Assembly: GCA_964016885.1 (NCBI GenBank)
Contig: OZ024754.1
Location: 34,596,001 to 34,660,000, forward strand
DNA length: 64,000 bases
Direction: 5' to 3'
DNA from: Eledone cirrhosa
Lineage: Eukaryota
The notes under the pieces are model-generated. The model saw nothing but the letters and a program-made list of their open reading frames with translations. It searched no databases and had not been told where the DNA came from. This document shows positions 13,030-13,233 of this stretch, piece after piece (position 1 is the first letter of the stretch; every line of letters starts with the position of its first letter). A program made the translations under genes and the position numbers.

Positions 13030-13233
13030 ACGAAGGAAATGTGGTAAGGAACCAGGTGGACCATAACGCACCAAAGTACTCAATACTTGAGGTAGTAGAG
13101 TGGGTAATAGGAACCAGTAAGACCCCGACAGCTGAGCTCAAGCCGTTTCGACGGCTAATTCTGGACTAATTCTTAGTCCAGAATTAGCCGTCGAAACGGC
13201 TTGAGCTCAGCTGTCGGGGTCTTACTGGTTCCT
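13030..13233 (-). mobile_element. Penelope-like pseudo-LTR relic with inverted duplication: perfect 61-bp arms at 13109-13169 and 13173-13233, 3-nt loop
   Basis: Perfect inverted repeat seen. It contains gtc-GAA-acggct-tgagctc-agctGTC-gggg, a hammerhead stem III plus GUC site. Flanked by TA repeats. Confidence 0.65.

What the first reader, a model, noticed from the sequence alone, without database searches (positions are those of the whole stretch)
13030..13233. A second, unrelated sequence with the same architecture: palindrome centred on a hammerhead stem II
Seen: perfect 61-bp arms around a 3-nt loop, an ~80-nt one-sided extension on the minus strand, and TA flanks. It contains GAA-ACGGCU-ugagcuc-AGCUGU-C, a 6-bp stem III with a palindromic GAGCUC in the loop and a canonical GUC site. 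The axis of symmetry falls exactly where stem II would be. I see no primary similarity to island 1, yet layout, arm length (61 vs 63 bp), polarity and target match. Inference: a recurrent ribozyme-templated fold-back mechanism that seeds ~60-bp perfect hairpins in TA microsatellites. This is the best candidate here for an undescribed system.
Basis: partly seen in the sequence, partly recalled or inferred. Interest (0 to 1): 0.75.

Follow-up and report, generated by a model that had tools for sequence, protein, structure and literature searches.

The report
Jumping-gene start site inside a ribozyme
This hairpin is one of many thousands of mirror-image stubs left by a Penelope-like jumping gene, and the stubs break off at one spot inside the loop of the element's predicted self-cutting RNA, likely because the element's messenger RNA begins there and the copying enzyme runs off its end.

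Summary
The hairpin is real: 61-bp arms, TTC loop, 80-nt tail, (TA)n flanks. Both arms are 100% identical to the end of a young, intact Hydra-type Penelope-like retrotransposon (PLE) in the same genome, with over 30,000 exact motif hits. Head-to-head copies, tail and (TA)n target are known PLE traits; earlier notes of this scan saw them on other DNA of this genome. The island holds only the 3' half of a hammerhead; the parent has the other half (U3-A8 core, 37-nt loop II). What is special here: of 22,945 arms that reach 12 nt into loop II, only 4,796 reach 18. Ends peak at the A of a conserved initiator-like TYAGT, in two subfamilies with different loop folds. Long copies read through (25 of 26), and the two arms of one insertion behave alike. 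Best reading: two cDNAs primed at both sides of a cut run off an mRNA that starts inside the ribozyme; long copies come from uncut multimers or circles. No RNA data tested this.

The parts
13030..13169 (-). Long arm: inferred cDNA primed at the distal start site; 3' half of the ribozyme region plus tail
   Evidence: 13027-13169 is 100% identical over 143 nt to parent L061 4847-4989; this end is fixed (46 of 125 arms end here)
13030..13109 (-). 80-nt tail between the two fixed ends; in the parent it is 5' UTR sequence leading to the ORF
   Evidence: present on exactly one arm in 74 of 77 mini-palindromes
13170..13172 (.). Junction TTC, private to this copy; probably a short re-copy of CTAATTC at the cDNA end
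   Evidence: 58 distinct junctions among 77 sampled insertions; 78 genome hits with a longer re-copy
13173..13233 (+). Short arm: inferred cDNA primed at the proximal start site, ends at GGTTCC before the TA repeat
   Evidence: 100% identical over 61 nt to parent L061 4847-4907; 54 of 125 arms end here
13173..13178 (+). Initiator-like TTAGTC, inferred +1 at A13175 (mirror copy: A at 13167 on the minus strand)
   Evidence: mode of arm 5' ends; conserved in 26 thinned ribozyme copies
13185..13192 (+). 3' strand of hammerhead helix II; its partner strand is missing from the island
   Evidence: pairs with the upstream strand in the parent's lowest-energy fold
13193..13215 (+). GAAA core, stem III with palindromic loop, GUC cleavage triplet
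13216..13220 (+). 3' strand of helix I (GGGGT)
   Evidence: pairs with ACCCC in the parent
12400..13029 (.). TA-type microsatellite, left flank (target; array runs further left)
13234..13900 (.). TA-type microsatellite, right flank (array runs further right)

Best explanation
The island is a stub of a Hydra-type Penelope-like retrotransposon, likely made when two reverse transcripts, primed on the two sides of a cut in a (TA)n repeat, ran off the 5' end of an mRNA that is predicted to start inside loop II of the element's hammerhead and were joined head to head. Shown: identity to the parent, two fixed outer ends 80 nt apart, one tailed arm per insertion, private junctions, and a sharp pile-up of inner ends at a conserved TYAGT. 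From the literature: internal initiation at two sites that delimit the tail, and cutting and extension of both strands, were shown in vitro for another PLE. Inferred: transcription starts at the A of TYAGT; such an mRNA carries only half a ribozyme at its 5' end, so it would not cut itself there, while the complete ribozyme at its 3' end would trim off the downstream priming sites; long and tandem copies would come from a second template class (uncut multimers or circles).
For: Parent with a 719-aa RT plus endonuclease ORF and the same two outer ends. 74 of 77 mini-palindromes have one tailed arm; 58 distinct junctions. 22,945 arms reach 12 nt, 4,796 reach 18 nt. In 231 sampled arms 27 read through; of 204 stopped arms 64 end at 12-13 nt, 33 at 14-17, 106 earlier, 1 at 47. 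Same mode in a diverged subfamily, 13 of 38 stopped arms, where the motif is mostly predicted unpaired. T-Y-A-G-T kept in 26/26, 26/26, 25/26, 26/26, 25/26 thinned copies while the two positions before it are 46-54% conserved; the variant seen twice is TCAGT, the core of the Drosophila initiator consensus quoted in PMC1636488. TATTTAAA starts at -29. ORF-bearing copies pass the upstream ribozyme 25 of 26 times. Both arms read through in 29 of 63 insertions, against 6-18% expected if arms were independent. Opposite-strand joints at 10-17 nt in raw reads of other samples. PMC11167929, PMC8557442.
Against: No RNA read was laid, so the start site is inferred from DNA only. Only 1 of 26 ORF-bearing copies ends at the proposed start (16 nt upstream of the core), so the model needs a second template class that was not observed. 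The window's own arms keep 15 nt, 2 more than the proposed +1, and 33 of 204 arms end at 14-17 nt, which needs a second start (a TCATT lies at 17) or re-copying. The diverged subfamily has no TATA-like box. Other parts of loop II are conserved too. No clear extra base from a cap at the junctions. TTAG also fits a splice acceptor. Rfam finds no hammerhead in the parent at E<=10, and covariation is weak: 3 of 22 pairs.
Confidence: 0.55

Rival explanations
1. Same element and double priming, but the enzyme stalls and drops off on the folded or protein-bound ribozyme (helix II and its extension); the RNA does not start there.
For: In the focal subfamily positions 9-17 lie in a predicted extra helix. 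A shared folded state of one RNA could also make both arms behave alike. The spread from 6 to 17 nt is broad.
Against: Long cDNAs pass the second ribozyme 25 of 26 times. The mode stays at 12-13 nt where the local fold differs. The enzyme has already passed helices III and II when it stops. A 4-bp helix II in island 1's family stops almost nothing.
Confidence: 0.2
2. The RNA 5' end is real but made by cutting (host nuclease, small-RNA slicing, or splice-site chemistry at TTAG) rather than by transcription start.
For: Explains run-off, re-copying at the end and concordant arms equally well; TYAG matches a 3' splice site; a PLE intron ends next to the ribozyme in D. virilis (PMC4209133).
Against: Arms keep the A and G that a splice cut would remove (64 arms at 12-13 against 10 at 11); no shared leader or exon upstream of non-mirror arms; no pyrimidine tract in the diverged subfamily; a TATA-like box at -29 fits transcription.
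Confidence: 0.13
3. One reading: one cDNA folds back at ribozyme stem II and copies itself, a mechanism shared by unrelated families. Self-priming has been proposed for PLE palindromes (PMC3846280).
For: Near-perfect symmetry; axes close to helix II in this lineage (8 of 36 hairpins in 600 kb, sorted by eye).
Against: Fold-back should copy the tail too, yet one arm stops at the fixed proximal end; either arm can be the longer one at the junction; island 1's family turns elsewhere.
Confidence: 0.07
4. The stubs are a self-propagating non-autonomous family (MITE- or SINE-like) copied from a hairpin master.
For: Very high copy number; some junctions recur up to 4 times.
Against: 58 distinct junctions in 77 insertions; arms carry the diagnostic bases of several subfamilies that also exist as long copies.
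Confidence: 0.05

Closest known systems
Hydra clade of C-terminal EN+ Penelope-like elements (Craig et al. 2021, PMC8557442; includes Hydra-1_Obim)
   Same: Single ORF of about 720 aa, RWR/DKT motifs, CxCx5C linker, CxxC and CxH, (TA)n target, hammerhead near the 3' end, inverted 5'-truncated copy.
   Different: Unit about 3.5 kb; tail 80 nt against 30-40 described for PLEs; core U3-A8 and 37-39-nt loop II, whereas all 25 Hydra-clade rows of the paper's table have CUGANGA and loops of 3-10 nt; most copies are stubs ending at one spot.
Poseidon element PAc of Anolis (Frangieh et al. 2024, PMC11167929)
   Same: Two internal start sites that delimit the tail, both strands cut and extended, AT-rich target, start sites near the 5' part of the unit.
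   Different: Other clade; start sites there are not homologous to the target, whereas here both are followed by TAT in the parent; no run-off stubs in the parts read.
U3-A8 hammerheads of Schistosoma mansoni PLEs (Cervera and de la Pena 2014, PMC4209133)
   Same: Same core covariant; dual motifs on opposite strands noted; circles proposed to explain tandems.
   Different: Those are minimal motifs; this one has a 6-bp stem III and folds as a monomer in silico.
Penelope of Drosophila virilis and Adineta vaga (PMC2377424, PMC3846280)
   Same: Promoter lies in the pseudo-LTR; TATA plus initiator-like motifs and head-to-head palindromes described.
   Different: In D. virilis the start lies upstream of an intron that ends at helix I, so outside the ribozyme.
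Minus-strand strong-stop DNA of LTR retrotransposons (recalled)
   Same: Priming near the RNA 5' end gives a short run-off cDNA that holds a sequence repeated at the 3' end.
   Different: Here priming is on target DNA at two sites and the run-off products are integrated.

Membership tests
Penelope-like elements (EN+) | Single ORF with RT and C-terminal GIY-YIG endonuclease | tested here: met
   719-aa ORF with YRDD and VIY..YIG motifs; 2,054 homologs, the best labelled PF01541. Pfam and PDB gave no direct hit.
Penelope-like elements (EN+) | Partial tandem, inverted 5'-truncated copy and one-sided tail | tested here: met
   L061 2214-8024; 74 of 77 stubs have one tail; tail is 80 nt, longer than the 30-40 described.
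Hydra clade | RWK and DKT motifs | tested here: met
   RWR and DKT in the parent; RWK in most of 26 aligned homologs (26 of 120 listed).
Hydra clade | CxCx5C linker; CxxC and CxH around conserved E and N; no CCHH | tested here: met
   All three motifs present; no conserved cysteine pair between the IY and YIG motifs (read by eye).
Hydra clade | Insertion into (TA)n | tested here: met
Hydra clade | Canonical CUGANGA hammerhead | tested here: not met
   U3-A8 in 41 of 50 distinct full copies, C3-A8 in 7, U3-G8 in 2; a known variant in other PLEs.
Hydra clade | Generally shorter than 3 kb | tested here: not met
   Tandem spacing about 3.54 kb.
Hydra clade | Phylogenetic placement with named Hydra proteins | not tested
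   No named Hydra protein was fetched; assignment rests on motifs.
Type I hammerhead ribozyme (window island) | Both core halves and three helices | tested here: not met
   5' core and 5' strands of helices I and II absent from the island.
Type I hammerhead ribozyme (parent element) | Core nucleotides and helices I-III | tested here: met
   Unconstrained lowest-energy fold of 116 nt is the hammerhead fold; 81% of cells paired in 26 copies, weak covariation, copies picked by pattern; no Rfam hit.
Type I hammerhead ribozyme (parent element) | Self-cleavage | not testable with these tools
   Needs an in vitro assay.
Non-LTR retrozymes | Tandem non-coding units, each with a complete hammerhead | tested here: not met
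   Island is a single inverted pair with half ribozymes; the parent codes for a protein (definition).
RNA polymerase II core promoter | Capped transcripts start at the initiator A | not testable with these tools
   No RNA holder listed.

The most novel reading that the evidence does not exclude
This PLE lineage has its transcription start built into loop II of its hammerhead. The mRNA is born with half a ribozyme at the 5' end and a whole one at the 3' end. Reverse transcription from two start sites near the 5' end gives strong-stop-like run-off cDNAs that are integrated as well over ten thousand perfect hairpins, while full transposition needs ribozyme-made circles or multimers. The genome would thus record both routes, and a role for the ribozyme.
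Probability: 0.4. Interest if true: 0.7.

Novelty: new variant of a known kind. Interest (0 to 1): 0.5.

Why it matters
How PLEs form inverted and tandem copies, and what their hammerheads do, are stated open questions (PMC8557442, PMC11167929). Here a young family with many intact ORFs leaves tens of thousands of footprints that fix both priming sites and one stop point to the base. That gives exact predictions for one 5' RACE experiment and one in vitro reaction. It also names a large source of perfect 60-bp double-stranded RNA hairpins in this genome (8 of 36 hairpins in a 600-kb sample).

Tried and rejected
Rfam on the window and the island: only microsatellite- or hairpin-driven miRNA hits among the rows shown (150 of 745; 31); none on the parent. 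Pfam and PDB on the ORF: nothing. No RNA holder listed. The depth step at L061 4856 in the RAD reads sits on an AATT site (recalled as a restriction site) and was not used. Contig depths fall about 30-fold across the stop point, but such depths cannot rank places and were not counted as evidence. The numeric extension column was faulty (fuzzy-match offset); the sequences and one search were used instead. The first column count caught only 37-nt loops and was redone. Search for a cap-derived extra base: inconclusive. Splice-acceptor reading: mostly rejected. A general stem-II rule: rejected. Loci L001-L030 were picked by a query that held the window's junction and were left out of all junction counts. 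Look-ups of earlier findings by sequence and by words returned nothing.

Full report
Observation. The island 13030-13233 lies in an 18-kb TA-type array. It has perfect 61-bp arms around TTC and an 80-nt one-sided extension. The 3' half of a hammerhead is there as described; the 5' core is absent on both strands.

Family and parent. The 34-nt core has 9,961 exact hits, a one-base sister variant 19,973 and a diverged subfamily 1,537; reversed controls gave 0. Three neighbouring hits led to a long insertion (L061 2214-8024): an inverted truncated copy with tail, joined to a partial tandem with a 719-aa ORF. Its outer ends are the two outer ends of the island, and both island arms are 100% identical to it. 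The ORF has YRDD, RWR, DKT, CxCx5C, a GIY-YIG-like stretch, CxxC and CxH, the features given for the Hydra clade (PMC8557442 section 11). Pfam and PDB gave no direct hit; 2,054 homologs were found among 7,996 scored candidates. Of 150 genome matches scored (12,299 candidates), 58 are identical over the first 140 residues, so the family is young. No tree with named Hydra proteins was made.

The ribozyme. In the parent, the unconstrained fold of 116 nt is a type I hammerhead: 5-bp helix I, UUGAGAA core (U3-A8), bulged helix II with a 37-nt loop, 6-bp helix III. U3-A8 is known from Schistosoma PLEs (PMC4209133). It holds in 41 of 50 distinct full copies; those copies were picked by a pattern on the core, so core conservation is not independent evidence. 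Covariation is weak: 14 cells with double changes against 7.6 in shuffles, but only 3 of 22 pairs. Rfam does not detect it. Activity is untested.

Two primed cDNAs. Outer ends are fixed (54 and 46 of 125 arms). Of 77 mini-palindromes, 74 have the tail on exactly one arm and 58 junction sequences are distinct. Either arm can be the more truncated one. This fits two cDNAs primed at two sites, as shown in vitro for the Anolis element (PMC11167929), better than one strand folding back. Both sites are followed by TAT in the parent, which could pair with the target (inference). Raw reads of three other samples show opposite-strand joints with one end 10-17 nt upstream of the core (5 of 11 listed joints), and a contig of another organism label shows the mirror arm at the same spot. 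The window's own junction was not checked in raw reads.

The stop point. Genome-wide, 22,945 arms reach 12 nt upstream of CCGTC and 4,796 reach 18 nt (exact patterns, so variants inflate the loss somewhat). In 231 arms around the first listed hits on one contig, 27 read through; of 204 stopped arms 33 end at 12, 31 at 13, 33 at 14-17, 106 at 0-11 and one at 47. Among 35 arms with a non-mirror neighbour, 16 end at 12-13, five of them from two duplicated loci. Position 13 is the A of TYAGT, kept at 92-100% per position in 26 thinned copies (26 of 50) while its two upstream neighbours vary; the variant seen twice is TCAGT, the core of the Drosophila initiator consensus quoted in PMC1636488. TATTTAAA begins at -29 in the focal subfamily but is missing in the diverged one. 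An 11-nt unit ending here is re-copied at 78 places, up to four times in a row in the 12 viewed, as expected at a template end or a pause; it is rare (0 of 77 sampled junctions).

Two template classes. Of 30 ORF-bearing copies, 4 end before the core, 25 pass the upstream ribozyme and 1 ends at the stop point (three are units of one array). Among 63 insertions with a read-through arm, 29 have two, against 6-18% expected for independent arms (first 100 of 2,177 hits). So stopping is a property of the template, not a coin toss at a fixed barrier. I infer an mRNA that starts in loop II and gives run-off stubs, and a second class without that end (multimers or circles, as proposed in PMC4209133) that gives long and tandem copies. 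That only 1 of 26 long copies ends at the start site is the weakest point of the model.

Generality. Island 1's family has a canonical CUGAUGA hammerhead with a 4-bp helix II. Picked downstream of the ribozyme, 29 of 30 arms keep it whole (30 of 1,156 hits). In 600 kb sampled at even steps (three pieces adjoin the window), 36 hairpins were found; 8 belong to this lineage, all turning within about 25 nt upstream of GAAAC; others with recognisable ribozymes turn elsewhere (sorted by eye). The stem-II rule is therefore not general.

What is known. Inverted truncated copies, tail, (TA)n bias and hammerheads in pseudo-LTRs are in print (PMC8557442, PMC3846280, PMC4209133), as is a promoter in the pseudo-LTR (PMC2377424). 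Earlier notes of this scan already reported Hydra-type ends, double priming and circle models on other DNA of this genome. I found no paper on a start site inside the ribozyme or on run-off stubs in six searches; most subscription papers are not covered. Seen: PMC8557442 abstract, passages, section 11, supplement part 2 of 59 and term searches; PMC11167929 parts 1-2 of 4; PMC4209133 parts 1-2 of 4; bioRxiv 10.64898/2026.07.22.740005 part 1 of 5 (its supplements not seen); passages only of PMC2377424, PMC3846280, PMC8384218, PMC1636488. Strong-stop DNA and the AATT restriction site are recalled.

Verdict. A real feature; a stub of a known kind of element (about 0.95); double priming about 0.85; run-off at a start site inside the ribozyme about 0.55. 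New variant of a known kind, interest 0.5.

Noticed in passing
window 1742-1987: Island 1: head-to-head pair of another PLE-like family with canonical hammerhead, AATAAA behind the cut site and a tail of about 100 nt; 1,246 exact motif hits. Its turn at stem II is atypical for that family.
   Followed up: yes
window 11035-11559: Inverted pair with nested hairpins from a third ribozyme-bearing family; related hairpins at L184, L201 and L229.
   Followed up: partly
window 7450-8816: 5'-truncated fragment of a LINE-type retrotransposon ending in ATC repeats; a near-identical one adjoins the parent in L061 1-2160.
   Followed up: no
L061 4912-4945 and 4992-5025: Similar small hairpins about 6 nt behind each of the two fixed ends; the second folds clearly, the first folds differently in my run. 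Earlier notes propose them as start signals.
   Followed up: partly
L411 1500-1600; L024; L025: An 11-nt unit re-copied up to four times at the junction, like reiterative copying at a template end by a telomerase-related enzyme; 78 genome hits.
   Followed up: partly
L306, L310, L339, L351, L403: Runs of T (sense strand) of 10-20 nt at some junctions, that is A runs at the cDNA end.
   Followed up: no
L270, L274, L275, L279, L284: C3-A8 and U3-G8 core states occur beside U3-A8: possible intermediates between the two paired cores, or decay.
   Followed up: partly
G000:C1:91473240-91493735 and C1:437200456-437211468: Tandem arrays of 5 and 4 full units of about 3.54 kb.
   Followed up: no
window 236-252 and 371-450: Two short inserts in the TA array that begin with the same 16 bases.
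   Followed up: no
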